Below are positions 7,763 through 27,754 of a stretch of 64,000 nt of DNA, one piece after another. The position numbers and the translations under genes are program-made. Origin of the DNA: Clostridia bacterium (lineage in GTDB: Bacteria > Bacillota > Clostridia > Christensenellales > UBA1242). Positions within the stretch are counted from its first letter, which is position 1; each line of letters begins with the position of its first letter. The notes beneath the pieces are model-generated. The model searched no databases, was not told where the DNA came from, and saw only the letters and a list, made by a program, of their open reading frames with translations. The stretch lies in the NCBI GenBank assembly GCA_017537515.1, contig JAFYKO010000122.1, positions 3,866-67,865 on the forward strand, read 5' to 3'.

Positions 7763-9172
7763 TTATATGCTTCTATTATCTATATAGTGCATAAGCGTAA
7801 TTTCCTGCTTCAACAACAAGCACTGTTCCTGTGTTTCAAAGAACTGCAACCTCTTGTCTTTCGGGTCCACATACGCGACACCTTCTTCCGAGCGTTCGCA
7901 AGGAAGGCAGGCTTCAACGGTGTTTTCACCGCAAGTATTTCGTGTGCTTACAAGTTCTGTAAGCCACAAGCCATAGAACTTCAAGTTCTCGGCTGCATTG
8001 AAATCTCTGTCGTGCCTATGCCCACATACGGGGCATACCCACTCTCTGTCTTTCAGTTTCAAATCTTCTTTCTTGTATTGTCCGCAGTGTGAGCAGTATT
8101 GACTACTAGCATAAAAGCAGGGAGCCTGTATTAACTGTATATTGTTCCACTTGCATTTATACTCTAAATAATTACGCATACGCCCGAAGTTTGCGTCTAA
8201 TATAGCCGAAGCAAGTTTGTGATTCTTCGTCATATTGCTAGGCTTCAAGTCCTCAATGACAACCATTTTAGGTTTAGACTTGTAAACCACATCGCTAGTG
8301 AACTGATGGGCTACGTTTATGCGAGCATTCGTTATTCTTTGATACAGCCTAGCGATTTTATGCTTACACTTGATTCTGTTCTTTGAGTGCTTACGCTTAC
8401 GTGCCAATGCACGTTGGTATCTACGCAAGCGTTGTTTAGCACGGGCATACCCTTTAGGGTTAGCATACACCATACCCTCACTTGTAATCGCTAAATCTTT
8501 AATGCCGAAGTCTATGCCTACAATATCGTCAGCAGTTATACTAGACACAGTTTCGTAGATAGGTATAATGTCAGTTTTATAGATAAACGACACGAACCAC
8601 TTGCCCGTAGCATCTACCGAAACGGTAGCCATAGACAGGGGTATTCTATCTACGCCAACGGGAATCTTGACGTAATTCTTTTCCTGTAAACGGATTTTCC
8701 CAATAGTGGGGATTTGAACGAAATCACGACCAATAAAAACATTTCCGCTACAACGGAAAGATTCGTTTACGTCATACCTGTGGAAGCGTGGGTGCTTGGC
8801 TTGACCCTTGAAGAACCGCTTCCAAGCAGCCCCTAAATCCCGCAAGGCTTCCTGCCCACAGAACTTGCTTACTTCTGCCATCCACTTGTTTTCGGGTAAC
8901 TTCTTGTAAATACACCATTCCTTGTGCCAATCAATAGGTGTTCCGAACTCACACTTGATTTTATGTCCTGGGGGAGTATTCTGTTTGGCTAATTCGTAAG
9001 CCTTGTTCTGTTGAGCAAGTTTCCAATTATATGCACGACGAGCAACAGCACACATCCTACGCAAGACAGGTATCTGTGCCTTGCTAGGTTTCAAGCATAT
9101 CTTTCGTCCGCTTATCTGTTGCATATACAAGTAAATGCCCGATGAATACTTATTGTGCAAGTCAGCATCCAT
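7763..9172 (-). CDS. tnpB: TnpB (IS200/IS605-family OrfB) RNA-guided-nuclease-type protein, canonical with zinc ribbon
   Basis: RuvC motifs VGIDFGIKD, VVIEDLKPS and HDRDFNAAENL, plus CSHCG...CPVCG between YASSQY and the last Asp. The true start may be the internal MQQISGRK at 9124. Confidence 0.85.
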   Translation of the reverse strand: MDADLHNKYSSGIYLYMQQISGRKICLKPSKAQIPVLRRMCAVARRAYNWKLAQQNKAYELAKQNTPPGHKIKCEFGTPIDWHKEWCIYKKLPENKWMAEVSKFCGQEALRDLGAAWKRFFKGQAKHPRFHRYDVNESFRCSGNVFIGRDFVQIPTIGKIRLQEKNYVKIPVGVDRIPLSMATVSVDATGKWFVSFIYKTDIIPIYETVSSITADDIVGIDFGIKDLAITSEGMVYANPKGYARAKQRLRRYQRALARKRKHSKNRIKCKHKIARLYQRITNARINVAHQFTSDVVYKSKPKMVVIEDLKPSNMTKNHKLASAILDANFGRMRNYLEYKCKWNNIQLIQAPCFYASSQYCSHCGQYKKEDLKLKDREWVCPVCGHRHDRDFNAAENLKFYGLWLTELVSTRNTCGENTVEACLPCERSEEGVAYVDPKDKRLQFFETQEQCLLLKQEITLMHYIDNRSI

Positions 9173-9238
9173 CGGGCATTCAAATGTCCGTATTAGTATA
9201 TAAGGACTTGCACATACTTATATACACTTTCAACCTAT

Positions 9239-9267
9239 AATATACATTTTTATCAAAAAATAATCAA
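9239..9267 (-). promoter_or_regulatory. promoter of tnpB copy 1 (TTGATT-N17-TATATT)
   Basis: -10 at 9239..9244, -35 at 9262..9267, 17-nt spacer. Confidence 0.55.
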
Positions 9268-9298
9268 GACCCTATATTAAAATGGCATAATAACTATT

Positions 9299-9952
9299 TC
9301 AAAGTTTTGTTCGTTGTAGGTTATGGAATGATATATCGGTCAAGAGCGTATTTGCGAACTCCCCCAGGTTGGTTCCAGGCGGGAACCTGTAAGATACGCC
9401 TGCGTAGGAATGCACTTCACGGGCAGCGTCATAGGAACATTGGAACAACACGCCCTGCCTGTCGGTGTCGTCTTTCGGAGCCAATCCATAGTAGGGTTCC
9501 CGAAAAATGAACATAACACCCCTGGTCCCAAAGAACTGCCAACCATCATTACCCGAATAGTCCTTGCAGTCGCAGGAACAGAACACCATAGCACCCCTGC
9601 TCTTACACGCCCAGGTATTGTAGCACGTTGCCAGGATATACAAGTATTCCTTTTCGGGCAACTGCAACCTGTCCTGGGAGGGCTTGAACTCACGGGCGAA
9701 TGTCGGGCACAGGTCTAGCAACTCACGCAGCGACACAGGGTTCAACGTGGATAGCCCGATATGCTCCAACAGGGTCCGTTCATTCGACGGCATCTTGCCG
9801 TTCAAGAACGTAGTGCGGTAGCCCTGGAAGTTCTTCGGGCTTTCGTATTCCTGCCCTCCAAAACGTTCGGCTATGAACAGCAAGGTAGCAGCAGCCTGTT
9901 CGGTAAACCCCAACTTCTGCAACTCACGTATTTCTTGAAGCCGTCTAGTCAC
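9299..9952 (-). CDS. hypothetical protein (217 aa)
   Basis: ORF track. Confidence 0.65.
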   Translation of the reverse strand: MTRRLQEIRELQKLGFTEQAAATLLFIAERFGGQEYESPKNFQGYRTTFLNGKMPSNERTLLEHIGLSTLNPVSLRELLDLCPTFAREFKPSQDRLQLPEKEYLYILATCYNTWACKSRGAMVFCSCDCKDYSGNDGWQFFGTRGVMFIFREPYYGLAPKDDTDRQGVLFQCSYDAAREVHSYAGVSYRFPPGTNLGEFANTLLTDISFHNLQRTKL

Positions 9953-9953
9953 G

Positions 9954-10178
9954 TCATACCTCGGTCAGTTCGTGGTCGTATTCGCCATTGTTCATCGTAT
10001 AAAGTTCTTCGTATTCCTCAACGGAACTTGTGAAGATGCCCCAAACGGAGCAGTCTTCTTCTACGATTTCTGCGAACTCTTTGTGCCATTGGGCACCCGT
10101 CATTACACGCCCATCGTAGGAATCCTTGTATTTCTTTTGCGGGTCCAGGTGATACCCTTCCGTGAACTTACGTGCCAT
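9954..10178 (-). CDS. hypothetical protein (74 aa)
   Basis: ORF track. Confidence 0.55.
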   Translation of the reverse strand: MARKFTEGYHLDPQKKYKDSYDGRVMTGAQWHKEFAEIVEEDCSVWGIFTSSVEEYEELYTMNNGEYDHELTEV

Positions 10179-10183
10179 AGTCG

Positions 10184-10432
10184 CTATTCCCTGTCAGCGG
10201 TTTTCTTGTTAATGAGGTCCAGGTAGTCCTTGACGGTCCGCAGCGAAGCCTTTTCGCAATCGCTGATTTCAATACCGAACTTGTCTTCAACCCTGCATAT
10301 AATGTCAAAAATATCCAGGGAGTCAGCACCCAGGTAAGCCAGGGAATCCTGTTCTTCAATGTCGTTGCGATGAACGTCTAGTTCAACAATGAGAATATCT
10401 TCAAATTGGTGTCTAATGATTTCGGGTTTCAT
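10184..10432 (-). CDS. acyl carrier protein (82 aa)
   Basis: LAYLGADSLDIFDIICRVEDKFGIEISD matches the ACP core (E. coli AcpP: [27 protein letters not shown]), including the phosphopantetheine-attachment Ser in DSL. Size is typical. Confidence 0.85.
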   Translation of the reverse strand: MKPEIIRHQFEDILIVELDVHRNDIEEQDSLAYLGADSLDIFDIICRVEDKFGIEISDCEKASLRTVKDYLDLINKKTADRE

Positions 10433-10713
10433 TTGTGTTTCTCCAAAGCGGAAAGTGAATCCAGGACAAAGCAGGTAGAAGCCACAGCGTCCTGCTTGTC
10501 GGGGCTAGGTCCAACCAACTTGCCCAACTCTTTTGCAAGGGATTCAAGTTGTTTTGAAGAACCCCCGTAGCGTTCACCGAACCCTGCCGTTTTCGCAAGT
10601 ATGCGTAAGTCTTCGTCGGTCGGGGCTGTGGCGACAAACGACTTGTCCGTAAGGGACGCACAGCACAGGACTTCCAAATCCTTGAACGACAACCCTTCCA
10701 ATTTTCTAGCCAT
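10429..10713 (-). CDS. hypothetical protein (94 aa), translationally coupled to the ACP gene
   Basis: ORF track. ATGA overlap with the ACP start. Confidence 0.55.
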   Translation of the reverse strand: MARKLEGLSFKDLEVLCCASLTDKSFVATAPTDEDLRILAKTAGFGERYGGSSKQLESLAKELGKLVGPSPDKQDAVASTCFVLDSLSALEKHK

Positions 10714-10714
10714 A

Positions 10715-11281
10715 CTAAATCACTCCGTCAATATCGTCAATTAGCCTGTTCTGTGTATCAATGATTTCCTGGGCGATGCGATACATAGTTGAACTGTTCA
10801 CGGGCATTCCGTAGTATTCCTGGGGTATTTCATACACAATGTCATTCCACAGGAACTTTGTGTAGTTGCTATTGAATGCGGGTGCAAACGGGGAAAAGTA
10901 ATAGAACCGCTCGCCTGCGATAACCTTGACACTTTTGGAGCCGTCTTCGTTCTCAACGACTTCCACGGAATTAGGCATCTGCTTTACAGGCGGGACACAC
11001 GATTCAATGGTTTCGTTAATATCCTCGCCATACAGGAAAATCCTACAATCCCTGGCGGTCGGCAATTCCTTGTCAATCCCGAAAGCCTTGACTTCTGCGA
11101 ACTTGTCGGGATTAGCCGTATAGAACTGCTTGCCGTCTTCCCCGTCCTGGCAGTAGAACGCAAATTCGGTCTTCAAGTCCTGCTTGCGTTTTTCCAATTC
11201 CAGGCGACGCTTCTCACGGCTTACCAGGATTCGCCTGGTAAAACCGATTGACATTAAAAGGTCGTGCAGCAATCCACTCAT
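10715..11281 (-). CDS. hypothetical protein (188 aa)
   Basis: ORF track. Confidence 0.6.
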   Translation of the reverse strand: MSGLLHDLLMSIGFTRRILVSREKRRLELEKRKQDLKTEFAFYCQDGEDGKQFYTANPDKFAEVKAFGIDKELPTARDCRIFLYGEDINETIESCVPPVKQMPNSVEVVENEDGSKSVKVIAGERFYYFSPFAPAFNSNYTKFLWNDIVYEIPQEYYGMPVNSSTMYRIAQEIIDTQNRLIDDIDGVI

Positions 11282-12135
11282 TACGTTCTTTCGCTCAATG
11301 GGAGTTTAAGCAACTTTTCCGCTTCTTCATTCGGCAACCACTTGCGGGAGCCGTCAGCCATACGGACGTATTTACCTTTTTGGTTCTGCAATACGTGGTT
11401 TCCGTAATACTTGATTACAGCGTCATACATAGCAAGCAAGTCGGCAGTATCACGGACAAGCGGGCACTTCTCGCAATTCCTGTCGCACCTGTCGGCACGG
11501 CTCACGCATTCACGCTCCGTTTTAAGCAGGTCCAGGACTTCTTCACGGGAAAGCCTTACGTTCCCCTTGCTAACCTTTTTCGGGGCTTCTACGGGCGGTT
11601 CCTGCGGTTCCGTAGCCACCTGCGGGTGGGGTGCCGAATAGGACGCAAGCCTGTCGGCAAACGCATTACAACTTTCCTGCAATTCCGTCGGGGACATTTT
11701 ATAGTTGCAGGCGGGCACAGTGAATCGGGTGCCCACGTCTTTAATCAAGTCTTCCAAAAGACTTGTAGTGTATCGCTGATAGTCCTTTACTCCAAACTGC
11801 CGAACGCCCTTACGCACCACAATCGGAGCATAGGAATCCTCACCGAAAATAAAAATTCGGGATAACGGCATAATGACATTATACGGGGGTGGCATAGACA
11901 AGTCATCCAACCTGTGATAGATAGGCGGGTATCTATAAGGGTCTTCGCACCTTACCCTTAATTCGTTCACAGCAAAACCGATAATGTAGAACGGGTCATT
12001 GTCGTCGGGAACCAATTCATTAAAACTAGAATCGGGCTTCACAATCCCGTGCTTTTTAAGAGTGTCAAGAGTGACAGGGTTAAACACAGCCCCGCCAAAC
12101 TTGACAACACATTCAAACAAACCATCTACTGTCAA
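11281..12135 (-). CDS. hypothetical protein (284 aa)
   Basis: ORF track. Confidence 0.65.
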   Translation of the reverse strand: MTVDGLFECVVKFGGAVFNPVTLDTLKKHGIVKPDSSFNELVPDDNDPFYIIGFAVNELRVRCEDPYRYPPIYHRLDDLSMPPPYNVIMPLSRIFIFGEDSYAPIVVRKGVRQFGVKDYQRYTTSLLEDLIKDVGTRFTVPACNYKMSPTELQESCNAFADRLASYSAPHPQVATEPQEPPVEAPKKVSKGNVRLSREEVLDLLKTERECVSRADRCDRNCEKCPLVRDTADLLAMYDAVIKYYGNHVLQNQKGKYVRMADGSRKWLPNEEAEKLLKLPLSERT

Positions 12136-12147
12136 AAGATACCTTCC

Positions 12148-12561
12148 TTATTTGGTGCTGTGGGCTTCCACAGCACGATTGAAATACTTTACAAAAGAGT
12201 GTGCCCCCTCCAAAAGACTGACGGGGGTGCGGGTAAGATAGCCGTGGGGACAATAGGTATCATTGAAAAACCCAACGCCATACTTGGAGCCGTCCATATA
12301 GTTTGCGGACAACAACAGGGTGTTCATACTCCCAAGGCTTGCCCACATCCTGCAAACAAGTTCCCTGGTTTCTATGTCCTTGATATGGATTTCGCACTTC
12401 GGTTCCTTGCTGCCAGGTATAGCGGGTGTCGGGTTCATTATGACGGGTGTCACTTCCACGACATACTTACCCTGCGAATACAGGTCTTCCTGGATATGTG
12501 ATGCAAACTCCAACGTATTGAAGTTAAGGTCAATCGCTTTGTGGTTAAAATCAATGGGCAT
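12148..12561 (-). CDS. hypothetical protein (137 aa)
   Basis: ORF 12148..12612 trimmed to ATG 12561 (MPIDFNHK) behind AACCGAGGTAATCATT. The longer form would begin inside the promoter. Confidence 0.6.
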   Translation of the reverse strand: MPIDFNHKAIDLNFNTLEFASHIQEDLYSQGKYVVEVTPVIMNPTPAIPGSKEPKCEIHIKDIETRELVCRMWASLGSMNTLLLSANYMDGSKYGVGFFNDTYCPHGYLTRTPVSLLEGAHSFVKYFNRAVEAHSTK

Positions 12562-12602
12562 AATGATTACCTCGGTTAAAGTTTGTGGTTGCCTATGTCC
12601 CA

Positions 12603-12655
12603 AATATAACAAATTACCTACACGTTGTCAATAGGTAATTTGAAAAAATTTTTAA
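12603..12655 (-). promoter_or_regulatory. sigma70-type phage promoter with perfect 10-bp inverted repeat around the -35
   Basis: -10 12603..12608, -35 12626..12631, 17-nt spacer. IR arms aaattaccta 12611..12620 and taggtaattt 12632..12641 with an 11-nt spacer. Confidence 0.8.
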
Positions 12656-14082
12656 CCTTTTTGTTTTTCAAAGGACAGGAACAGCCCACAAGTTTCGTGG
12701 TGGCGTTCATACATCTTAAACGACTTCCCATTGAACCCGTAGCGGGACATTTCGCTTCGCAGGTCCTTGACAGGCACCTTAATATCCACCTTGATTGCAT
12801 ACCTGCCTTTATCCGTCGGCTTAACCTGGACTATATCCGAACCGACACGCAGCGGGTGGATAAAGATTGCTTCGCCCTGTTCCTTGACCGCCTTGACTAT
12901 ATCCGAACTAGCCTCCACGTCCAGGACGAATGAGCCGTAGGGTTCAATCCACGGGACTTGCTTTGCGACATAATCGTGCAGGTCACGAATGCGAACGTCG
13001 CCCACGGGGATATGCTCCCAGGTCAAAGACTGATGGACCATTTCACAAGTGTCGGGGTCAAACGTCATATCCACGTCAACGTCCGACTTGCACAGGACTT
13101 CACACGTTTTCAAGTCAAACTTGATTTCGCCCTTGCCTGTCTTCAAATCTTCCCTAAACTGATATGTGAACCTGGACTGCAAATCGCTTTCAAGGAACTC
13201 ACGGGAATCGCTAGGCATATACTTCGCAGCGGAAACGCACATACTGATAGGTAGCATCCACACGCTGTTAATGATTACCGCAGCAGCCAACGTTTCTTCG
13301 TAAACCTTGGAACCCAGGCTGCTACTATACCTATCCATTATAAAGTCACTCTTGCCCAACGCTCTAATGCCGTCTGCATACTCATTTACGTGCTGACCGC
13401 TACCACCCCACTTCTCGCATTCTTCAAAGCCCACAATGAACTTCGGGTCCAACAGGGATAGTCGGCAGTGCAATTCCCAAAAGTCTGCAATTCTCGCACC
13501 ATTACCGCTAGAATCAAGGTATTCAACAGTGGGGTAAAGGTAGATATTGGAAGTAGATATTTTTCGCAACCCGTGGTCCCATACTTCCCATTGGCACATA
13601 TCCAATTCAAGCATAGGCTGACCCTTGACGAACAAAGTCTGTTCATAGTTCCCGTTGCTCTTTACTTCAATGTCATCGCAGCCCGTCCACTTACGCACCA
13701 GGTCCGCTACACGCTCAATAATCGGGAACGCTTCAAGATACAACTGCAACTCTCTCAACGCTGTCAACTTTGCACAGCGGGCTTCCACGGTCTTTTCCGA
13801 ACCCGAAGCAAGTATTCGTCGCAACTCCGACACACGCTTTCCGTCCCAGGACTTCGGAACCTTTACGGACTTGCTGATGGAATCCGTGATATACTTTTCT
13901 GCAAGTTTGACCTTTTCTTTCAGCACCCTGGATTTAGCCGACGACAAATCCTTTTCGGAGCGTTGCAGCACGGCTGCATAATGCTTCGCCTGCTTCAAGT
14001 CTTCGGACACCTTTTCACGCAGTTCCGTTAGGTTCTGTTCGTTCCTGGCTGTCACGCCTTTAAGTTGTTCTTCAAGCGTCAT
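12652..14082 (-). CDS. hypothetical protein (476 aa)
   Basis: ORF track. Confidence 0.7.
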   Translation of the reverse strand: MTLEEQLKGVTARNEQNLTELREKVSEDLKQAKHYAAVLQRSEKDLSSAKSRVLKEKVKLAEKYITDSISKSVKVPKSWDGKRVSELRRILASGSEKTVEARCAKLTALRELQLYLEAFPIIERVADLVRKWTGCDDIEVKSNGNYEQTLFVKGQPMLELDMCQWEVWDHGLRKISTSNIYLYPTVEYLDSSGNGARIADFWELHCRLSLLDPKFIVGFEECEKWGGSGQHVNEYADGIRALGKSDFIMDRYSSSLGSKVYEETLAAAVIINSVWMLPISMCVSAAKYMPSDSREFLESDLQSRFTYQFREDLKTGKGEIKFDLKTCEVLCKSDVDVDMTFDPDTCEMVHQSLTWEHIPVGDVRIRDLHDYVAKQVPWIEPYGSFVLDVEASSDIVKAVKEQGEAIFIHPLRVGSDIVQVKPTDKGRYAIKVDIKVPVKDLRSEMSRYGFNGKSFKMYERHHETCGLFLSFEKQKG

Positions 14083-14090
14083 AAAACCCT

Positions 14091-14924
14091 CTAGTTTCTA
14101 TACCTACTCCAAAAGTCGTCTGCTTCCTGCTGCTTTCGCTTACGCTCACGCCAATACTTTCCGTATAGCCATTCATTCGGCAGGGCGACGAACGCAATGA
14201 TTAAGCCGATACACACAATGGCGAACACGACCCAAAAGATAGGGACACCCCATTTGTGTATCAAGTGGTCCACGGCTTCGTCAAGCCCAACGCCATTCAA
14301 GAACTTTGCATCGTTGAACTGATGGTTGTCAATGTTGGCATAGACGGTTCCCGTATAGGACAAATTCCTGCCGTAATAGACATAGCGTTGCTTGGCAGAA
14401 AAGAACCCGCTGCGGTTCAAGTTAATCGTGGTGATATAGTTCTCCCCTGGGAGTGCAGGGAACGACCCGTAATAGAAATTCCTGCCCAGGAAATTGACCT
14501 GGTTGACCGCAAAGTGATTGCGACCGATAGCGTCCCAGGTCCAATAGGTTTCCGTATGGCAGTGTCTATTCTTACCCTCACCCGAACAGACGGTCCTGTG
14601 GTGCTTTCGGTATTCTTCAAGGACCCTGGTAATCGTCATATAGTTCCCGATACCATCGTCCGTCACGAACCCTACCGCACTGACTGTCCCGTAGGCGAGC
14701 GTGTGCCCTGCGTTAGTCTTGAACGCATAGTTAAATTGTGTGCTGTCCGCTAACTTGACAGCCTCATAATACTTCACGTTTGCGTCGTCTTCGCAACTAC
14801 GAATGGAGCCTGCGATACAGATACCACCGATAAATGCAATAAGAGCGAACACGATTGACACGAAGATTTCACGATTCGTCACTTCCACTTCGGGACCGCT
14901 GTTGTATGAATAAGGGTAAGACAT
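14091..14924 (-). CDS. membrane protein, N- and C-terminal TM helices flanking a ~190-aa domain (277 aa)
   Basis: Hydrophobic segments IFVSIVFALIAFIGGICIAG and VPIFWVVFAIVCIGLIIAFVAL. Lies immediately downstream of lemA. Confidence 0.65.
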   Translation of the reverse strand: MSYPYSYNSGPEVEVTNREIFVSIVFALIAFIGGICIAGSIRSCEDDANVKYYEAVKLADSTQFNYAFKTNAGHTLAYGTVSAVGFVTDDGIGNYMTITRVLEEYRKHHRTVCSGEGKNRHCHTETYWTWDAIGRNHFAVNQVNFLGRNFYYGSFPALPGENYITTINLNRSGFFSAKQRYVYYGRNLSYTGTVYANIDNHQFNDAKFLNGVGLDEAVDHLIHKWGVPIFWVVFAIVCIGLIIAFVALPNEWLYGKYWRERKRKQQEADDFWSRYRN

Positions 14925-14927
14925 AGG

Positions 14928-15482
14928 TTAGTCCTTCAATAAGCCCGTCGGAGCGTCAACGGGAGCGTTTTCAAACTTCAAGTATTCGTATTCCTTTGCT
15001 TCGTAGCCTACCCAATCCAGGAACACACGGGTCGGGAAACTGCGGACGTATCGCTTGTAATCTTTGACACCTGCATTGTAGTAGGTTCTATGGCTATCAA
15101 TGCGATTTTCGGTCATCGCAAGTTCGCTCATATACCTGTCGTAATTCTCAATGCTTCTCAACTGCGGGTATCTTTCCACGACACCTTTAAGGTAAAGGGA
15201 AGCGTTCACGTTGCCGTTGCCTTCCTTTGGGGTGCGGGCTTCGGACAACTGCACAAGCACTTCGGATTCGTGCTTGTCGTATGATTTAACCGCTTCTGCA
15301 AGGTTGCGGAGCAAACCGTTTCTGCGATTATATTCAGCGTTAAGGTCGCTTTCAGCACTTTCAATCACCTGTTCCTTTGCGATAGCGGAGTTCTGCGAAC
15401 TTTGAACACCGAAAATGCAGGCGACTGCGGTAAGTCCCGCAAGGACGAGGACTGCGATTACAATGAGGATTGCTTTTTTCAT
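14928..15482 (-). CDS. lemA: LemA family protein (184 aa)
   Basis: N-terminal TM helix followed by the LemA signature blocks YNRRNGLLRNLAEAVKSYDKHE, ERYPQLRS and ENRIDSHRTYYNAGVKDYKRYVRSFP. Confidence 0.85.
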   Translation of the reverse strand: MKKAILIVIAVLVLAGLTAVACIFGVQSSQNSAIAKEQVIESAESDLNAEYNRRNGLLRNLAEAVKSYDKHESEVLVQLSEARTPKEGNGNVNASLYLKGVVERYPQLRSIENYDRYMSELAMTENRIDSHRTYYNAGVKDYKRYVRSFPTRVFLDWVGYEAKEYEYLKFENAPVDAPTGLLKD

Positions 15483-15519
15483 TTTTTGTTTTTCCTTGTT
15501 GGTTTATGTAAGACAATAC

Positions 15520-15672
15520 TTACTTTCGGTTTGGTTTTAACGATTTAATTGTTGAACACCATTCAAAATTATCGCAGCAATAACCTATTTGGTGCGGTTC
15601 ACTACCGCACCATTTTTCACGATTCTTTTTGAACCTGTGCTTACACCAATAACAACATTTATGTTTATCCAT
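15520..15672 (-). CDS. small Cys-rich (zinc-binding-like) protein (50 aa)
   Basis: My own translation: MDKHKCCYWCKHRFKKNREKWCGSEPHQIGYCCDNFEWCSTIKSLKPNRK. GAGGT SD 6 nt upstream. Below the ORF-track size cut-off. Confidence 0.45.
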   Translation of the reverse strand: MDKHKCCYWCKHRFKKNREKWCGSEPHQIGYCCDNFEWCSTIKSLKPNRK

Positions 15673-15813
15673 AAGTTACCTCATTCTAGGTTAATACGTT
15701 CCCGAAATGCTAGTGATTTCTTGCATCGGGAAATCGTGTCGTTTCAAATAGTCACGGCAGCGGTCAATACTGCCAATACGATTTTCTTCATTTTTTGATT
15801 TCCTGGATAGAAG

Positions 15814-16050
15814 TTATACAACGGACGGCAAAACATCAACGACCTTGTAAGCCGAATAGTAGTCTTCGCCCCAACCATACTCAAAGTCCCAACCGTCGTA
15901 ATGCAATTCGGCTGCGTGAGAGTTGTTGGGGCTATCCCAATCCTGCTTTACCTTGTTCTTTACCTTTTCAAGATTTTCCTTTGAGTATTCGTAAATCTTG
16001 ATTTCGTCGTCGGTGTGACGGTTGTGGCACTTATAAACGATAACTTTCAT
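15814..16050 (-). CDS. hypothetical protein (78 aa)
   Basis: First ORF after promoter 16086..16132. Leader ...CCACCACAACAAACCGAGGAAACT-ATG. Confidence 0.6.
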   Translation of the reverse strand: MKVIVYKCHNRHTDDEIKIYEYSKENLEKVKNKVKQDWDSPNNSHAAELHYDGWDFEYGWGEDYYSAYKVVDVLPSVV

Positions 16051-16085
16051 AGTTTCCTCGGTTTGTTGTGGTGGGTTATGTCAGT

Positions 16086-16132
16086 AATATAACAAATTAC
16101 CTAAATGTTGTCAATACGAATTTTGAAATTTT
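16086..16132 (-). promoter_or_regulatory. sigma70-type phage promoter (family member)
   Basis: -10 16086..16091, -35 16109..16114, 17-nt spacer. Overlaps the last codons of the coaE-like gene. Confidence 0.75.
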
Positions 16133-16904
16133 CGCATAATTTTTTCTTGTCGTCCCTGTCGTCATACAGCGGGCACGGGAACGGACAATGCGAGCAGCCA
16201 CCCATAAAGGTCTTATACAAGTAGCATTGAACACGGCTCTTTACGTCCTTTGTGAAGACACGCAAGTTCATAGCGAACACAGCGTCACGTTCGTCGTCCG
16301 TAAGGTCCAACAGGTCCCGAAGTGCAATACGCACCTGCTTGTCAAGCGTTTCCAGGGAACCATTGTTCGTAATCACAACGTCGTGCTTATCAAGCGGGCA
16401 GTCCTGCTGCAAGTTGTCACGTTCGGCAATCTGTTCAATAGACAGACCGCTTCGCTGTTCCACACGTTCGTATCGCAGGTCCTTGTCCGCACGAACTACA
16501 ATCCTACGGGAATAGTTAGGGAGCGACTTAAACATATCCAGAACCCGCTGCGATTCGTGAACTTCAATGAACACGGGAACGTCTTCACTGATACCCACCA
16601 GGTAATTAGGCAAGAACACCAGGAACGACTTGAACACATATTCCTCAAATGCACGACGCTGCTTCGCATAACAAGCCTTGAAGAAGTTCTCACGCATAAA
16701 CGAAACGTCCACGTTGCCGTTGCCGTCCAGGACTTCCTTTGAGAACAACTTTACCAACTTCTTCTTGCAGCACTTCGCACCCAGGAACATTTTTGAAAAT
16801 TCGTCAATGCTCACTTCGCAGTGGTGGTGCCTGCGGATAACCGAAGCCACGGCAGACTTACCGCTGCCGATACGCCCCGTAATCAAGATAATGCGGTTCT
16901 TCAT
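16101..16904 (-). CDS. coaE: dephospho-CoA kinase (CoaE)-like P-loop kinase with Cys-rich C-terminal extension (267 aa)
   Basis: Collinear with E. coli CoaE as I recall it: IILITGRIGSGKSAVA (Walker A), SIDEFS, LFSKEVLDGNGNVDVSFMRENFF, RRIVVRADKDLRYERVEQRSGLSIEQIAERDNLQ, HDVVITNNGSLETLDKQV. An extra ~70 aa follows, ending in CSHCPFPCPLYDD. Confidence 0.7.
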   Translation of the reverse strand: MKNRIILITGRIGSGKSAVASVIRRHHHCEVSIDEFSKMFLGAKCCKKKLVKLFSKEVLDGNGNVDVSFMRENFFKACYAKQRRAFEEYVFKSFLVFLPNYLVGISEDVPVFIEVHESQRVLDMFKSLPNYSRRIVVRADKDLRYERVEQRSGLSIEQIAERDNLQQDCPLDKHDVVITNNGSLETLDKQVRIALRDLLDLTDDERDAVFAMNLRVFTKDVKSRVQCYLYKTFMGGCSHCPFPCPLYDDRDDKKKLCENFKIRIDNI

Positions 16905-17188
16905 TATTCCCCCTTTAAGTTCTCAACGTCGCTGTAAAGGGCGTTCAATATGTTTGCAATCGGAACTTCTTCAATGCGAAGATGCCGTTTGATTTCGTCG
17001 TTGCGGTAATCCGTGTTCCATTCGTCCCAGGGCTTATTCCCAAAGTATTCGTCGTGAATGTAGGTGTCCGCTTCATCACGGTTGTTAAAGAACCTAATAA
17101 AGCGACGATACTTACCGTCCTGGTAATACAACGCCATCACGGTCGGGATGGCACAGCCCCTTTTGTTTTCGGTTTTAGTCTTGTTCAT
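16904..17188 (-). CDS. hypothetical protein (94 aa)
   Basis: ORF track. Confidence 0.55.
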   Translation of the reverse strand: MNKTKTENKRGCAIPTVMALYYQDGKYRRFIRFFNNRDEADTYIHDEYFGNKPWDEWNTDYRNDEIKRHLRIEEVPIANILNALYSDVENLKGE

Positions 17189-17189
17189 T

Positions 17190-17534
17190 TTACTTGCCCT
17201 TATACTTGTCGTAAAATTCTTTCAAGTCCACGGTCCCACCCAGGCGATTATACAAGGATTGCATATTGGCGAACCCTTCGTCGCTATAAGCGAAACTGCG
17301 ACCCTCTTTCTTTTGAATGCTTTCAAGTTCTTCGTCAATGAACTTCTTGCAGGAATACAGGTCAAACGAATGTGCGAACGCACTAAACCCGTCTTCGTCA
17401 ATGGCTTCCCATACGACGCAGTGTTCGGGCTGAAAGTAGCCCCCGCATTCAATGAACACGCCCCTATACAAATAGCGAATGCCAACTTCGGAGCGACCTG
17501 TTTTCTTGTGTGGTAATCGGTGTGCCCTAAACAT
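17190..17534 (-). CDS. hypothetical protein (114 aa)
   Basis: ORF track. Confidence 0.55.
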   Translation of the reverse strand: MFRAHRLPHKKTGRSEVGIRYLYRGVFIECGGYFQPEHCVVWEAIDEDGFSAFAHSFDLYSCKKFIDEELESIQKKEGRSFAYSDEGFANMQSLYNRLGGTVDLKEFYDKYKGK

Positions 17535-17545
17535 ACGCAGCCCTA

Positions 17546-17896
17546 CTAGAAAACGGGAATGGCGTTGCGGAGCGAATCCAATACAGCGTTCAACTGCTCC
17601 GTCGTGAGAACCTTGAAATCGCCCGCTGTGCCCACAACGCAGGTAAGCAGCAGGTCTTTCTTCTTCACACGGGTGCGATACCAGGAACCGCTACAATCCC
17701 CGTTCTTTGCGGACTTCGCAGCGACCTGCACATAGTCCTTGTAATAGAAAATGTAGATGGAGCCTTCCTTTACGTGGAAGTCCACAAGATAATAACTATC
17801 GGAATCCTTGTGCGAAATCTTGACCCACTTGTTAGTGTAGTTTTCATAATGGGCTTCTGCACAGGGCGACTTGCTTGATTTTCTAGTCATAGACAA
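17546..17896 (-). CDS. hypothetical protein (116 aa)
   Basis: ORF track. Confidence 0.55.
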   Translation of the reverse strand: MSMTRKSSKSPCAEAHYENYTNKWVKISHKDSDSYYLVDFHVKEGSIYIFYYKDYVQVAAKSAKNGDCSGSWYRTRVKKKDLLLTCVVGTAGDFKVLTTEQLNAVLDSLRNAIPVF

Positions 17897-17928
17897 TCCT
17901 TGATTATGCGGTGTAGTTTACCCGCCTG

Positions 17929-18192
17929 TTAGATGCTGACCTTGCCGTTGAATCCGTAGGAAATCGTCTTGCCCTGGAGCAGTGCGATAGCGTCTTCCTT
18001 TGCAAAACGCAGATAGCCACGGCTAGACAGTAAGCGACCATTGATGGTGCCGTTAGGTTCATACAGGTCAAAGTCATCGGTCCTGTAATCGTGGCGAATG
18101 TAAAGGGTCTTCTGCCCGTTGCTGCAAACATAGCGGTTGCCGTCACGCTTAATCGTGATGCCTTCGGGAACTACGACGTTGTGTCTTCTCAT
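17929..18192 (-). CDS. hypothetical protein (87 aa)
   Basis: ORF 17929..18246 trimmed to ATG 18192 (MRRHNVVV) behind AACCGAGGATATTCCA. The longer form would start inside the promoter. Confidence 0.6.
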   Translation of the reverse strand: MRRHNVVVPEGITIKRDGNRYVCSNGQKTLYIRHDYRTDDFDLYEPNGTINGRLLSSRGYLRFAKEDAIALLQGKTISYGFNGKVSI

Positions 18193-18236
18193 TGGAATAT
18201 CCTCGGTTTCGGGTGGTTGGTTGTCTTTACGTCCTA

Positions 18237-18295
18237 AATATAACAAAATACCTGCTGATTGTCAACAGGTATTTTAAAAATTTTTAAATTTTTGA
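18237..18295 (-). promoter_or_regulatory. sigma70-type phage promoter with perfect 10-bp inverted repeat around the -35
   Basis: -10 18237..18242, -35 18260..18265, 17-nt spacer. IR arms aaaatacctg 18245..18254 and caggtatttt 18266..18275 with an 11-nt spacer. Long A/T UP tract. Confidence 0.8.
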
Positions 18296-18475
18296 TTATT
18301 TTCCGTGGGCTTTCTTGAAGTCTGTATAGACGGTCGGCAGTTTTACCCTCACCCGCTCCAAAAGGTCTTCGTGGAGTTTTGCGATTTCCCGAAGCGAGTC
18401 ATATTCCCATTTGGGGACTACCACGGTGTCAGCGTCCCCGTGCGGGCTAATCGGGTATTTTTTGAGGCGACTCAC
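18296..18475 (-). CDS. hypothetical protein (59 aa), GTG start
   Basis: My own translation: (V)SRLKKYPISPHGDADTVVVPKWEYDSLREIAKLHEDLLERVRVKLPTVYTDFKKAHGK. GTGA overlap with the stop of 18472..18894. The plus-strand ORF 18305..18655 is its shadow. Confidence 0.45.
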   Translation of the reverse strand: MSRLKKYPISPHGDADTVVVPKWEYDSLREIAKLHEDLLERVRVKLPTVYTDFKKAHGK

Positions 18476-19510: not shown

Positions 19511-19560
19511 AATATAACAAAATACCTGCTTATTGCAAACAGGTATTCTAAATAATAAAT
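19511..19560 (-). promoter_or_regulatory. phage promoter, weaker -35 (TTTGCA/TTGCAA), with inverted repeat
   Basis: -10 19511..19516. IR arms aatacctg 19521..19528 and caggtatt 19540..19547 with an 11-nt spacer. Confidence 0.6.
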
Positions 19561-25492: not shown

Positions 25493-27754
25493 TTAAGCCT
25501 CCTGTGCAAGCGACACAGCCAAAGTCTGCGTTTGGCTGTATGCGGTAATGTAAACGTCCACAAAGCGAGCCACGCCCTTGAAGCGGATTGCATAGTCAAA
25601 GCGAAGCACTTCATCACCGATAACGTTCTTGTCGGCACTGACGATACCTTCTTCAATGTAGTTCTTGTCAATGAAGTTTTGGTTCAACTGATTAAGAACT
25701 GCAAGACCACGGTTGACAGTGGATTGGTCGTTGTATTCAGCCACGAATGCCTTCATAGCGTCATAGATAGCGAACTTCATCCATAAGAACGAAATAATGC
25801 AGTGAATGTCGGAAAGCGACGTGTCGGTAAGTTGCGACGTGCGTTCTTCCCAAATGAAGTAGCCACCGTCTTCAATGACAGGGTTAATCTTCAACTGACG
25901 GGCGAGCATATTGCGTTCGGGTCCGCTGAACTGCTGCGACAGGGACAGACAAGCAATCTGTCCGTAATTGTAGCCGAACGGGGGACGTGCTTCAATGCCG
26001 TCGTTGTAGTGGCTGTTGAGCAAGTCAGCGACCAAGCAAGCCATAGTCACAGCCGTTCTCTTGCCTGCCAGGGTGCGGTAAGCATACTGACAGTAGTCGG
26101 CAATAAAGCGGTTGCCGTGACGACCCGTAAGGTTGCCGAACACGTCGGTAGAAGCAGCACGACCAATGTTAGACAGACCCAAGGTCGCTTCATTGGAAGC
26201 CGTGATTGCGGAAATGTAATCCGCAGGGTTCATAATGTCGCCAAGGTTCGGGGTAGCAAGACAACGCCAACGGGTAAGGTTGTCCCCAAGCAACACTTGG
26301 AGTGCCTGCGAGTAGGCGTAGGACTTGTTCTGCCCAAGAATCTTGTTTTCCTTAATCATACCCTCAAAGTAATGGAGTTCATTAGTAATCGGGTCGTTTT
26401 CGTAATCAATGGTGTAGTCGCCAAAGATTTCGCTAGACTTCGGAACAAGATACTTGGAACCACCCATAACAGCGTCCATCTGCATAGAAATGTAGTTGGA
26501 ATCAAAGTCGTCGTAAGACATAGACACCACGAAATCATTCTTGCAGTAGGTCTTGTAGTAGGAAGCCCAATACTCATTCTGCTCACCCATATACATATAG
26601 GTGTTGCGGTTTTTAAGATAGAGTTGGGTGCTAATGTTGAACTTCGCAACATAGCCGTCGCCCTTCTTTGCAACCGTCACATTACCGCACGGGAAGCCGT
26701 AGAAGCCAGGTGCGAGTTTACGGGTAGAAGTCGGGTCTTCGGCAATCGGGAGTTCCACGGTAGCCGTGAGCGAAATAGACAGACCGAAGCAGTTGAGTTG
26801 CTGCGGACCGCCATCCTTACCCGAATACAGGTAATAGACACCATACTTTTCGTTTTCGTCGGAACCCGAACCTTCCACACCCACACCAGGGGTATAGACA
26901 AGCGGGGTGTCCCAATCTTCTTCAATGACGTGCTTGCCGTCTGCGTAAGTGGCACCCTTGACCGCTTCTGCAAACTTGTCAAACATACCCCAATCGGAGC
27001 CGTCAAACAAAGCGGAGTAGTCAAATTCAGCCATACGGTTCACACGACCATTCACGAAAGCGGTAATCTTGACAGGGTGTTCGCCCTCGTCACCGCTACC
27101 GCTACCGCCCGCTGCTGCACCGACCAGGAAGCCGTCCAACTTGAAATCGCCCGAAGCGGAAATAAGGTTGGCAACGTCGGGATTGAATGCGAGTTCTGCG
27201 GGAACGTCTTCGTCAATGTGGTTTGCACCGTCAAAGTCAAACAACTGCACACGGACGGAACGACCTTCCTTTGCGTAAGCAGACTGCGTAATCGGCTGAC
27301 TTAAACGCACGACGACGTTCTTCTTGTCCTTGGAGCAGTAATCGCCTTCGCCCTTGAAGTAAAGGTAGGATTCGCTGTCTTCAACAGGGGCAGCGATAGC
27401 CGAAGCGGGAAGCATAGTGTTCACGACCAACTTGCCGTCTTCCACCGTAAACTTCATAGCACCGAACGGAGTGTCCGACGGGAGCATTTCGGGGTCCTTT
27501 GCACGGCAAAGAACCTGCGGGACCTTACGCTGTGCGAGCAAGTAGGCTTCCATAGCAGCAAGCCCGTGACGCTCCATATTCGGAGTGCCGAACGTCTTCA
27601 CGTAATCGTCTTCGCTAGAAATCAAGGTTGGTGTATTACAAAGTCCCCTGTCTGCTTCAATGGCACCCGCAGAACGGAAACCGATTGCAACAGAAGAACG
27701 CTGCGATTTATCAATGAGGTAAACACCTACGCCTGCGGAATCATTAACGGGCAT
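25493..27754 (-). CDS. contractile tail sheath protein (753 aa)
   Basis: Sheath-tube-chaperone-TMP synteny. N-terminal GVGVYLIDKS...FGTP pattern resembles the PGVY.E start of sheath proteins. Size is typical. Confidence 0.75.
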   Translation of the reverse strand: MPVNDSAGVGVYLIDKSQRSSVAIGFRSAGAIEADRGLCNTPTLISSEDDYVKTFGTPNMERHGLAAMEAYLLAQRKVPQVLCRAKDPEMLPSDTPFGAMKFTVEDGKLVVNTMLPASAIAAPVEDSESYLYFKGEGDYCSKDKKNVVVRLSQPITQSAYAKEGRSVRVQLFDFDGANHIDEDVPAELAFNPDVANLISASGDFKLDGFLVGAAAGGSGSGDEGEHPVKITAFVNGRVNRMAEFDYSALFDGSDWGMFDKFAEAVKGATYADGKHVIEEDWDTPLVYTPGVGVEGSGSDENEKYGVYYLYSGKDGGPQQLNCFGLSISLTATVELPIAEDPTSTRKLAPGFYGFPCGNVTVAKKGDGYVAKFNISTQLYLKNRNTYMYMGEQNEYWASYYKTYCKNDFVVSMSYDDFDSNYISMQMDAVMGGSKYLVPKSSEIFGDYTIDYENDPITNELHYFEGMIKENKILGQNKSYAYSQALQVLLGDNLTRWRCLATPNLGDIMNPADYISAITASNEATLGLSNIGRAASTDVFGNLTGRHGNRFIADYCQYAYRTLAGKRTAVTMACLVADLLNSHYNDGIEARPPFGYNYGQIACLSLSQQFSGPERNMLARQLKINPVIEDGGYFIWEERTSQLTDTSLSDIHCIISFLWMKFAIYDAMKAFVAEYNDQSTVNRGLAVLNQLNQNFIDKNYIEEGIVSADKNVIGDEVLRFDYAIRFKGVARFVDVYITAYSQTQTLAVSLAQEA

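What the first reader, a model, noticed from the sequence alone, without database searches (positions are those of the whole stretch)
18237..18295. Conserved promoter family with a 10-bp inverted repeat bracketing the -35 (built-in operator)
Eight minus-strand sites share UP(A/T)-TTGACA-N17-TATATT with an exact 17-nt spacer. Their -10 elements are at 3351, 6390, 12603, 16086, 18237, 19511, 36631 and 49872. In five of them the -35 sits in the 11-nt spacer of an inverted repeat. The repeat is AAAATACCTG-N11-CAGGTATTTT at 18245..18275, and the same arms occur at 36640..36668 and 19521..19547. A second arm type, AAATTACCTA-N11-TAGGTAATTT, is at 12611..12641. The other sites are degenerate. A dimeric DNA-binding protein on this palindrome would occlude or contact the -35 and the spacer, so it could be a phage repressor or anti-repressor switch, or an appropriator-like factor. 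The two arm variants (TACCTG vs TACCTA) could define two regulons. The promoters and SD use point to a host with sigma70-like -35/-10 recognition, so a Bacteroidota-type host is unlikely.
Basis: seen in the sequence. Interest (0 to 1): 0.6.

Follow-up and report, generated by a model that had tools for sequence, protein, structure and literature searches.

The report
Phage promoter with overlapping terminator hairpin
A repeated, near-perfect bacterial-type promoter in an uncultured T4-related giant phage often carries a built-in hairpin that most likely stops transcription coming from the upstream gene; this is a new example of the "promoter plus stem-loop" cassettes known from T4-like phages, not a demonstrated repressor switch.

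Summary
Seven minus-strand sites match TTGACA-N17-TATATT exactly (0 expected), and an eighth has TTTGCA. All have an A/T-rich upstream tract, a TG extended -10 and a strong SD. Five have the 10-bp inverted repeat around the -35.

About 60 further copies occur in related ~215-kb IMG/VR phage contigs. The arms co-vary: there are four symmetric arm types, and three orthologous pairs carry compensatory changes. The 5 nt after TTGACA often pair with TTGA. Read-through RNA could therefore fold into a hairpin of up to 15 bp followed by UAUUUUGUUAUAUUU.

Elements start about 30 nt after the upstream stop codon. Promoters with a weak repeat have a conventional terminator upstream far more often (11/29 vs 2/26). 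The copy at 36631 is a 52-bp insertion absent from seven relatives. A 12-kb block between two copies is replaced by one gene in a relative.

Best reading: composite sigma70-type promoter plus attenuator/terminator cassettes of the PeSL kind (Arbiol 2010; Comeau 2014).

The operator idea is not excluded, but it is disfavoured. Arm conservation is asymmetric, arm types switch between orthologues, and the repeat is dispensable. The strong conservation of GGTAWTTTGT in the spacer, even without a -35 or a left arm, remains unexplained.

The parts
18276..18295 (-). A/T-rich UP-like tract, starting 30 nt after the stop codon of the upstream 59-aa ORF (18296..18475)
   Evidence: Sequence. 96% A+T in the 25 nt beyond the arm. 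Stop-to-(-35) distance of 30 nt.
18266..18275 (-). Left arm AAAATACCTG, the 5' half of the hairpin stem
   Evidence: Co-varies with the right arm across the family.
18260..18265 (-). -35 hexamer TTGACA. Its TTGA forms the inner stem.
18255..18259 (-). N5 (ATCAG). TCAG pairs with TTGA (one U.G pair), leaving a 3-nt loop CAA.
   Evidence: strand folding MFE hairpin, -17.6 to -18 kcal/mol, z = -5.4. The terminator scan reports 15 pairs and a loop of 3.
18245..18254 (-). Right arm CAGGTATTTT. It is the 3' half of the stem and also the conserved promoter spacer motif GGTAWTTT.
   Evidence: G28, T30, A31 invariant.
18237..18245 (-). TGT extended -10 plus the -10 hexamer TATATT (18237..18242). With the preceding T-run this forms the U-rich tail UAUUUUGUUAUAUUU after the GC part of the stem.
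   Evidence: d-score +10.5 for this copy.
18190..18236 (-). Inferred transcription start (~18230). Conserved leader ACAACCAACCAC...AACCGAGGATA, with SD GAGGA at 18200..18204. ATG at 18190..18192 starts an 87-aa ORFan (17929..18192).
   Evidence: The start site is inferred, not mapped.
36631..36669 (-). Family copy with a perfect hairpin. It is part of a 52-bp insertion between two genes that are directly adjacent in 7 relatives.
19511..19549 (-). Family copy with -35 TTTGCA and N5 ATAAG. The inner stem is kept by changes on both sides.
12603..12641 (-). Family copy with arm type AAATTACCTA/TAGGTAATTT. The loop does not pair with itself.
49872..49910 (-). Family copy with a partial repeat (one G.U pair and a 2-nt bulge).
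3351..3389 (-). Family copy, repeat degenerate
   Evidence: z = -1.4.
6390..6428 (-). Family copy with no hairpin. It marks the left edge of a 12-kb variable block.
16086..16124 (-). Family copy embedded in the 3' end of the upstream ORF. The stop codon TAG is the TAG of the right arm. No hairpin.
42237..42283 (.). -35-less palindrome made of two back-to-back copies of TAGGTAATTTGTTATATW around an 11-nt centre. A conventional terminator lies just upstream at 42331..42360. It sits ~720 nt upstream of the major capsid gene and is conserved in relatives.
46922..46939 (-). A copy of TAGGTAATTTGTTATATA with no -35 and no repeat. It overlaps the stop codon of ORF 46940..47716 and lies upstream of the head-protease gene cluster.
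   Evidence: conserved at L150+2227.

Best explanation
The element is a member of a family of strong host-RNA-polymerase (sigma70/sigmaA-type) promoters: A/T-rich UP tract, TTGACA, a 17-bp spacer, TGn, TATATT, a ~33-nt leader and a strong SD. These promoters start short transcription units, mostly of ORFans, in an uncultured T4-related phage of ~215 kb.

In about half of the copies, including 18237, the 10 nt upstream of the -35 are the complement of the conserved spacer segment YAGGTAWTTT. Often the 5 nt after TTGACA also complement TTGA. An RNA that reads in from the upstream gene, whose stop codon is ~30 nt away, can therefore fold into a hairpin of 10-15 bp. Its 3' side runs straight into the U-rich spacer and -10 sequence. 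That is the layout of an intrinsic terminator or attenuator.

The same ~40 bp would thus end the upstream transcript and start the next one. This is a composite promoter-terminator cassette of the PeSL type. Such a cassette can be inserted between genes without polar effects, and it provides homology for swapping gene modules.

Shown: the sequence family, the co-variation, the predicted folding, the position after stop codons, the complementary distribution with ordinary terminators, and the insertion and junction behaviour. Inferred: that host RNAP uses these promoters, the position of the start site, that termination actually occurs, and how efficient it is.
For: Promoter:
- 8 exact matches against 0 expected; TG present.
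- A/T-rich upstream tract.
- SD and start codon a median of 40 nt after the -10.

Pairing:
- 24 of 64 copies have perfect 8-bp arms, and the distribution is bimodal. Arms exceed permutation in 0 of 10,000 trials.
- Double-sided changes number 32 vs 15.7 +/- 2.6, and slid controls are much lower.
- Three orthologous pairs differ by compensatory changes: L001-1765/L007+4615, L004-6279/L015-833 and L005-11138/L015-11436.
- Inner-stem complementarity rises with arm integrity (2.9 vs 1.9 of 4 pairs, p = 0.006).
- At 19511 a -35 change is matched by an N5 change.

RNA sense:
- The sense strand folds better than the antisense strand at 51 of 64 sites (p = 1e-8).

Terminator-like character:
- Five window copies fold at -15 to -18 kcal/mol, with z from -3.8 to -6.
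- The tool's terminator scan flags 18276..18244 and 19550..19518.
- Hairpin-plus-U-tract scores are well above random windows (median -40 vs -77; 9 of 64 vs 0 of 150 above 0).

Position:
- The upstream stop codon lies a median of 33 nt before the -35.

Substitution for ordinary terminators:
- A GC-rich terminator lies within 130 nt upstream in 12 of 32 weak-repeat promoters and 2 of 29 strong-repeat promoters (p = 0.006).
- After collapsing orthologues this is 11 of 29 vs 2 of 26 (p = 0.011).

Cassette behaviour:
- The 36631 copy is a 52-bp insertion absent from 7 relatives.
- The window block 6431..18192 is replaced by one gene between two elements in L029, with junctions at the element edges.

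Precedent:
- PeSLs consist of an AT-rich tract, a near-consensus sigma70 promoter and a stem-loop that may overlap the -35. They show terminator and promoter activity in reporters and sit at indel junctions in T4-type phages (PMC2839356; PMC4122927).
- The phage has a gp23-like capsid protein and a gp21-like protease.
Against: - By the hairpin/U-tract score only 9 of 64 copies reach the value typical of efficient E. coli terminators. Stems have only ~4 G-C pairs, and several loops are 9-11 nt. Many copies would be weak attenuators at best.
- Two promoters with perfect repeats (L009+3633, L029+9040) and the 42237 palindrome lie just downstream of a conventional terminator, where a second one is redundant.
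- In the outer stem, mismatches show no preference for G.U over other mismatches. The sense-strand bias therefore rests mainly on the inner stem and on the fixed T/G-rich right arm.
- Compensatory changes in a DNA palindrome can also arise by template switching during replication, without selection for an RNA structure.
- The right arm is conserved far beyond what a stem needs. It is kept without a left arm, without a -35, and it changes in concert in another lineage. This model does not explain that.
- No transcript data exist.
Confidence: 0.55

Rival explanations
1. Operator. A phage-encoded dimeric DNA-binding protein binds TACCTR-N11-YAGGTA. It occludes or replaces the sigma region 4 / -35 contact, giving a temporal switch. 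Precedents from my own knowledge: phi29 p4 sites overlapping a -35, and lambda-type operators.
For: There is an exact palindrome with fixed 11-bp spacing centred on the -35 in many copies. The same arms and the same 11-nt spacing recur without a -35 in the conserved palindrome upstream of the capsid operon, next to an ordinary terminator. The arm core ACCT/AGGT is conserved in sequence, not only in complementarity. The spacer motif changes in concert across all copies of another lineage, GGTAWTTTGT to GATAAAKTGT, as expected for co-evolution with a trans-acting factor.
Against: Conservation is asymmetric: the right arm is much more conserved than the left. About half of the promoters lack the left half-site. 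Two positions vary but stay symmetric, in four combinations, and they switch between orthologues. A protein that ignores those bases would not enforce symmetry, and one that reads them would fix a single base. The centre of the palindrome tends to be self-complementary. The repeat is statistically replaced by ordinary terminators. No DNA-binding domain was detected in adjacent genes, but only 64 kb of ~215 kb was examined.
Confidence: 0.2
2. By-product with no function of its own. The conserved unit is the 18-mer core promoter YAGGTAWTTTGTTATATT. The left arm is a remnant of a second, back-to-back copy, as at 42237..42283. Replication template switching and recombination between copies keep it symmetric.
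For: A full back-to-back pair of 18-mers exists and is conserved. The 18-mer occurs alone at 46922. Asymmetric arm combinations look like recombinants between arm types: A/C in 8 copies and A/A in 14. The orthologous pair window 6418 / L029+1403 shares only the right part.
Against: The repeat stops at 10 bp in ordinary copies. Only 12 of 64 continue to pair 11, so there is no trace of the rest of a reverse 18-mer. Integrity is bimodal, either perfect or degenerate. The association with loop complementarity and the anticorrelation with ordinary terminators are not expected for a neutral remnant.
Confidence: 0.13
3. A DNA-level structure. Cruciform or hairpin extrusion in supercoiled or single-stranded DNA hides the -35, giving supercoil-sensitive promoter control. 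Alternatively it is the recognition or recombination site of a phage enzyme, as in N4-type hairpin promoters or IS200/IS605- and REP-like hairpin elements.
For: The co-variation says only that the arms pair, not in which molecule. The element behaves as a small insertion. The window carries a TnpB and two RuvC-like paralogues. PeSL recombination was mapped to the stem-loop (PMC2839356).
Against: A perfect sigma70 -35/-10, TG and UP signature argues for duplex recognition by host RNAP. The inner stem uses T.G pairs, which would be A.C mismatches on the other strand and would weaken a cruciform. No target-site pattern or TnpA-type transposase was seen (only the window was examined). No phage RNAP was looked for.
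Confidence: 0.07

Closest known systems
PeSLs (promoter-early stem-loops) of T4-type phages RB49/phi1, T4/PST and KVP40/nt-1 (Arbiol et al. 2010, PMC2839356; Comeau et al. 2014, PMC4122927)
   Same: Both are intergenic cassettes with the same order of parts: stop codon, AT-rich tract, near-consensus TTGACA-N17-TATAAT-like promoter, stem-loop, SD and start codon. In one described PeSL subclass the stem-loop overlaps the -35. Stems have a lineage-specific consensus. Both are many-copy families in front of ORFans. Both include degraded 'half' copies. Both are found at insertion, deletion and replacement junctions. Both occur in a phage with T4-type head genes.
   Different: Here the geometry is fixed. 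The 3' arm is always the promoter's own conserved spacer, and the -35 is in the loop or inner stem. The stems are A/U-rich (ACCU/AGGU core) rather than G-run/C-run, so predicted termination is weaker. The phage is only distantly related: its capsid protein is ~29% identical to any cultured phage. No functional assay has been done.
Intrinsic (Rho-independent) terminators with an upstream A-tract
   Same: A hairpin directly followed by a U-rich tract, an A-rich tract on the 5' side, and a location just after a stop codon.
   Different: Low G+C stem and often a large loop. The U-tract is interrupted (UAUUUUGUUAUAUU) because it must also serve as TGnTATATT. Most copies score below the usual threshold.
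Operators overlapping a -35 (lambda/434 OR/OL; phi29 p4 sites). Comparison from my own knowledge.
   Same: A palindrome centred on or next to the -35 of a sigma70-type phage promoter.
   Different: Here the half-sites are conserved unequally, are variable but symmetric, and are often absent. No cognate protein is known.
N4 virion-RNAP early promoters (DNA hairpins). Comparison from my own knowledge.
   Same: A short hairpin with a 3-nt loop that is part of a phage promoter.
   Different: N4 promoters have no sigma70 -35/-10 and need a phage-encoded RNAP. Here the sigma70 consensus is near perfect.

Membership tests
Sigma70/sigmaA-type promoter with UP element and extended -10 | -35 TTGACA and a -10 close to TATAAT, 17 +/- 1 bp apart | tested here: met
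   Seven exact TTGACA-N17-TATATT matches on the minus strand, 0 expected. 11 of 12 consensus positions matched.
Sigma70/sigmaA-type promoter with UP element and extended -10 | TG one base upstream of the -10, and an A/T-rich tract upstream of the -35 | tested here: met
   TG flagged at all family copies. Mean 78% A+T over 25 nt, against 53% for the window.
Sigma70/sigmaA-type promoter with UP element and extended -10 | Transcription initiates ~7 nt downstream of the -10 with host holoenzyme | not testable with these tools
   No transcript data. The host is unknown (one search gave only 3 unrelated hits in Firmicutes MAGs).
PeSL composite promoter-terminator cassette | Intergenic position between co-oriented genes, in the order: stop codon, AT-rich region, promoter, SD, start codon | tested here: met
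   Stop codon a median of 33 nt before the -35. Start codon a median of 40 nt after the -10. 50 of 62 copies have an upstream ORF ending there.
PeSL composite promoter-terminator cassette | A stable stem-loop within or next to the promoter | tested here: met
   29 of 64 copies fold at -9 kcal/mol or better. Five of the 8 window copies fold at -15 to -18 kcal/mol. The remaining copies lack it; the PeSL papers also describe degraded copies.
PeSL composite promoter-terminator cassette | The stem-loop terminates or attenuates upstream transcription | tested here: inconclusive
   A U-rich tail is present and scores exceed random windows, but only 9 of 64 copies exceed the classical threshold. Indirect support comes from the anticorrelation with ordinary terminators. 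There is no experiment.
PeSL composite promoter-terminator cassette | Association with ORFans and with insertion, deletion or replacement junctions between related genomes | tested here: met
   Downstream genes have no PHROG or Pfam family. The 52-bp copy at 36631 is absent from 7 relatives. A 12-kb block vs a 0.6-kb block sits between the same two elements. Only a few junctions were examined.
PeSL composite promoter-terminator cassette | The host genome is a T4-type myovirus | tested here: inconclusive
   gp23-like capsid (Pfam PF07068, E = 2e-10), a tail sheath and a weak gp21-like protease hit. The capsid is only ~29% identical to cultured phages, and those hits are not classical T4-likes.
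Palindromic operator of a dimeric repressor or activator | Two half-sites of the same consensus, conserved to a similar degree | tested here: not met
   The right arm has 3 invariant and 3 near-invariant columns. The left arm has 1 invariant column. Only 24 of 64 copies are perfect, and 30 of 64 have 5 or fewer of 8 pairs.
Palindromic operator of a dimeric repressor or activator | A cognate DNA-binding protein encoded by the phage or host | tested here: inconclusive
   No HTH or other DNA-binding domain in 20 neighbouring ORFs. About 70% of the genome lies outside the window.
Palindromic operator of a dimeric repressor or activator | Protein binding changes promoter output | not testable with these tools
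   Needs EMSA or reporter assays.
N4-type hairpin promoter | Recognition by a phage-encoded RNAP of an extruded hairpin that lacks sigma70 elements | tested here: not met
   A near-consensus sigma70 -35/-10/TG/UP signature is present in every copy. A phage RNAP was not searched for.

The most novel reading that the evidence does not exclude
The truly conserved unit is the 16-18-nt block (Y)AGGTAWTTTGTTATATT, not the palindrome. It survives without a -35, without a left arm, and as a conserved back-to-back pair upstream of the capsid operon. It changes in concert (GGTA to GATA) in a sister lineage. It could be the recognition site of a phage-encoded factor (a sigma appropriator, activator or alternative sigma). 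Such a factor would use -35-containing copies early and -35-less copies, in front of the head genes, late. On this reading the palindrome gives a second, symmetric binding site.
Probability: 0.15. Interest if true: 0.6.

Novelty: new member of a known kind. Interest (0 to 1): 0.33.

Why it matters
This would extend PeSL-type composite promoter-terminator cassettes from a few cultured T4-like coliphages, vibriophages and yersiniophages to a distant, uncultured lineage of ~215-kb phages. That suggests the design is a general solution for inserting and swapping genes without polar effects. This family is an unusually compact version: the UP tract doubles as the A-tract, the -35 sits in the loop, and the spacer and -10 double as the 3' stem and U-tract. 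It also gives practical landmarks for annotating transcription units and mosaic junctions in these genomes. It raises one concrete open question: why GGTAWTTTGT in the spacer is so strongly conserved.

Tried and rejected
- Near-identity DNA search of 7 kb against 50,697 phage records found nothing.
- A distant search with the 111-bp element gave only generic A/T-rich promoter look-alikes in Staphylococcus and Vibrio phages.
- A genome-contig scan for the motif gave 3 unrelated single hits in Firmicutes MAGs. This is not usable as host evidence.
- A looser viral contigs pattern (TTATATT-N20-45-AACCGAGGA) was mostly noise and added only 8 sites.
- Rfam and tRNA scans of the window found nothing.
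- Pfam and PHROG searches of genes around the elements for a regulator found nothing.
- G.U versus A.C counts in the outer stem were tested as a strand test and showed no clear bias. Only the whole-hairpin energies and the inner stem favour the sense strand.
- I considered reading the left flank as a reverse-facing extended -10 promoter. I rejected it because only a subset of copies (TTTTAACAATACC) would give TGnTAAAAT.
- I considered a match to the Bacteroidota -7 motif TAnnTTTG. I rejected it because TAWTTTG is one base short and SD use is strong.
- I looked for a target-site duplication at the 52-bp insertion, as a MITE-like or IS200/605-like signature. None was seen.

Full report
**What is there.** On the minus strand, 18295..18190 reads: AAAAATTTAAAAATTTTT-AAAATACCTG-TTGACA-ATCAG-CAGGTATTTT-GT-TATATT-(leader)-ACAACCAACCAC..AACCGAGGATATTCCA-ATG. 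TTGACA-N17-TATATT occurs 8 times exactly in the 64-kb window, against 0.00 expected from shuffles. Seven of these are minus-strand members of one family, with -10 boxes at 3351, 6390, 12603, 16086, 18237, 36631 and 49872. The eighth exact match (29030, + strand) belongs to another gene family. All copies carry TGT before the -10, which is an extended -10. The upstream tract is 64-96% A+T, against 53% overall. The start codon follows a strong SD about 40 nt after the -10.

**Genomic setting.** The window is nearly all minus-strand genes of a novel large myovirus. It has a gp23-like major capsid protein (39870..41519), a tail sheath (25493..27754), a weak gp21-like prohead protease hit (44431..45474) and a TnpB (7763..9172). 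There is no near DNA match among 50,697 phage records. The capsid protein is ~29% identical to the best cultured phages. Scanning IMG/VR with the motif, and later with the capsid protein, recovered relatives. Several are 213-216-kb contigs. They carry the same promoter family, giving 64 unique copies in total.

**The inverted repeat is under constraint to pair.**
- Among the 64 copies, 24 have perfect 8-bp Watson-Crick arms. The distribution is bimodal: 8 pairs in 24 copies, 7 in 4, 6 in 5, and 5 or fewer in 31.
- Re-dealing right arms among sites never reaches the observed complementarity (376 vs 342 +/- 5; 0 of 10,000).
- On a gap-free 57-sequence alignment, cells changed on both sides number 32 against 15.7 +/- 2.6 in shuffles (0 of 500). 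The co-variation score is 0.183, against 0.04-0.10 for slid partners.
- Two pairs carry the signal: the pair next to the -35 (A:U 32, G:C 13) and the seventh pair (A:U 27, U:A 16).
- All four symmetric combinations occur (ATACCTG/CAGGTAT, ATACCTA/TAGGTAT, TTACCTG/CAGGTAA, TTACCTA/TAGGTAA), plus TTTACCTA/TAGGTAAA.
- Three pairs of orthologous promoters, with the same flanks on both sides, differ by exactly such double changes. This removes much of the worry about shared ancestry.
- It also shows that arm type is not a stable label of a 'regulon'.

**The '11-nt spacer' is often part of the stem.**
- In 18237, 36631 and many relatives, N5 is ATCAG or ATCAA. TTGA then pairs with TCAG/TCAA, leaving a 3-nt loop CAA and a 14-15-bp hairpin.
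- At 19511 the -35 is TTTGCA and N5 is ATAAG, which keeps four inner pairs.
- Inner complementarity is higher where the arms are intact: 2.9 vs 1.9 of 4 pairs, Mann-Whitney p = 0.006.
- The inner helix uses many U.G pairs. The sense strand folds better than the antisense strand at 51 of 64 sites, p = 1e-8. This favours a structure in sense RNA, or in the non-template strand.
- The caveat is that in the outer stem, mismatches show no G.U preference.

**Terminator-like properties.**
- Five window copies fold at -15 to -18 kcal/mol with z-scores of -3.8 to -6. Copies 3351, 6390 and 16086 do not fold.
- The GC-containing part of the stem (CCUG...CAGG) is followed directly by UAUUUUGUUAUAUUU.
- The tool's own terminator scan lists 18276..18244 and 19550..19518.
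- I applied a d'Aubenton-Carafa-type score with ViennaRNA energies, so the threshold is only approximate. It gives +10.5 for the 18237 copy, -1 for 19511 and -8 for 36631.
- The family median is -40, against -77 for random 66-nt windows. Only 9 of 64 copies exceed 0, against 0 of 150 random windows.
- The best copies therefore look like real terminators, and many look like weak attenuators.

**Position and substitution.** Elements begin right after the upstream gene. The stop codon lies a median of 33 nt before the -35, and 17-37 nt in the window. At 16086 the upstream ORF ends in the TAG of the right arm, and the left arm, which is coding, is not complementary. The most telling test is the distribution of conventional terminators. 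Promoters with a weak repeat have a GC-rich terminator within 130 nt upstream in 12 of 32 cases. Those with a strong repeat have one in 2 of 29 (Fisher p = 0.006). After collapsing orthologues this is 11 of 29 vs 2 of 26 (p = 0.011). The repeat and an ordinary terminator thus tend to replace each other.

**Cassette behaviour.**
- The copy at 36631 is a 52-bp insertion: a short A/T tract, the repeat with the -35, the spacer, the -10 and 9 nt more.
- It lies between two genes that in seven relatives (73-99% capsid identity) are separated only by an SD.
- Its core 30 nt are identical to the 18237 copy.
- In relative L029, the orthologues of the 18237 and 6390 elements flank a single 0.6-kb gene. 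In the window, 12 kb lie between them, with two more elements and a TnpB. The homology breaks at the element edges.
- Genes behind the elements have no family assignment.

**Comparison with the known.** This matches the PeSLs of T4-type phages in its parts and behaviour. PeSLs have an AT-rich region, a near-perfect sigma70 promoter, a stem-loop, an SD and a start codon. The stem-loop can lie between the boxes, overlap the -35 or the -10, or lie upstream. The stem-loop acted as a strong terminator, and the whole element as a strong promoter, in lacZ fusions. PeSLs sit at indel and replacement junctions and can recombine within the loop (PMC2839356). Stem consensus differs by lineage, and degraded half-copies occur (PMC4122927). 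Four things differ here: the fixed geometry, the A/U-rich stems, the reuse of the promoter's own spacer as the 3' arm, and the very distant phage lineage.

**What does not fit, and the rivals.**
- The right arm plus -10 (YAGGTAWTTTGTTATATT) is conserved more than a stem requires. G28, T30 and A31 are invariant, against a single invariant left-arm column.
- It is kept in a related phage whose left arms are mostly non-complementary (TTGGTATTTTGT).
- It occurs without a -35 at 46922 and as a back-to-back pair at 42237..42283, just after an ordinary terminator and ~720 nt upstream of the capsid gene. Both are conserved in relatives.
- In another lineage all copies read GATAAAKTGT instead.
- A neutral 'remnant of a back-to-back copy, homogenised by template switching' (about 0.13) and a DNA-level hairpin function (about 0.07) are further rivals.
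- None of these explains the anticorrelation with ordinary terminators as well as the terminator reading does.

**Verdict.** This is a real, well-defined promoter family. The inverted repeat is real and constrained. The most likely function is a promoter-overlapping attenuator/terminator hairpin in a PeSL-like mobile regulatory cassette (confidence about 0.55 for the whole statement, and higher for the promoter part alone). That makes it a new member of a known kind. Interest is moderate to low, with one open point worth an experiment: the conserved GGTAWTTTGT spacer block.

Noticed in passing
window 42220-42360 (both strands); L147-L151, L159, L161, L162 about 720-960 nt upstream of the capsid gene: A conserved regulatory knot upstream of the capsid operon. 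It starts with a conventional, apparently bidirectional terminator (42331-42360). Next come two reverse-facing copies of GGTAAT(C/T)T(A/G)TTATAT(T/A) (42268-42283 and 42289-42304, + strand). A forward copy (42237-42252) forms an 18-bp-arm palindrome with the first reverse copy. Last is a tandem TGACATTTTT x2 with a 10-bp period. The reverse copies could drive a ~60-80-nt antisense or small RNA that ends at the terminator.
   Followed up: partly
window 46922-46939 (-); L150 2227: A copy of TAGGTAATTTGTTATATA with no -35 and no repeat overlaps the stop codon of ORF 46940-47716. It lies upstream of the Bro-N-like, prohead-protease and scaffold genes and is conserved in a relative. It may be a distinct (late?) promoter class that shares the spacer/-10 block.
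   Followed up: partly
window 29066-30394 (+) and 53287-54582 (-); L001 ~4850-5900, L009 ~1380-2260: Two paralogous 431-442-aa genes, 71% identical, in opposite orientation. Their motifs suggest a RuvC/TnpB-like nuclease (GIDMNPN, AIEDLS, NPAYSS), but there is no Pfam or PHROG hit. At least the 29030 copy and its homologues in L001 and L009 sit behind their own TTGACA-N17-TATATT, with the ATG only 7 nt after the -10. That implies a nearly leaderless mRNA. They look like a mobile gene family.
   Followed up: partly
window 7763-9172 (-): An IS605-type TnpB (OrfB_IS605 plus Cas12f1-like TNB domains) lies inside the 12-kb variable block. It is 70% identical at the DNA level to a copy in L001.
   Followed up: partly
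window 6431-18192 versus L029 766-1391: A 12-kb block of the window is represented by a single ~205-aa gene in the 213-kb relative. The window block holds four family promoters, a TnpB and a dNMP-kinase-like ORF. Homology breaks at the promoter cassettes. L002 shows further swaps, and a 1.5-kb indel, within the same block.
   Followed up: partly
leaders of family copies, e.g. window 18193-18230; 48 of 62 copies: The 5' leaders share a C/A-rich block (ACAACCAC) followed by AACCGAGGATA and then 4-7 nt to the start codon. It may be a translation-enhancing, unstructured leader. It was not analysed.
   Followed up: no
L055, L122, L161 (contig IMGVR_UViG_3300031998_000006 and relatives): In this sister lineage every copy of the spacer block reads TTGATAAAKTGT instead of YAGGTAWTTTGT, including the pair upstream of the capsid gene. 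This is a concerted, lineage-wide change of a promoter spacer motif.
   Followed up: partly
window 16101-16904 (-): An ORF whose N-terminus resembles a P-loop deoxynucleoside-monophosphate or guanylate kinase (PHROG 139, E = 7e-8) ends inside the 16086 promoter. Its coding sequence therefore carries the UP tract and the -35 of the next transcription unit.
   Followed up: no
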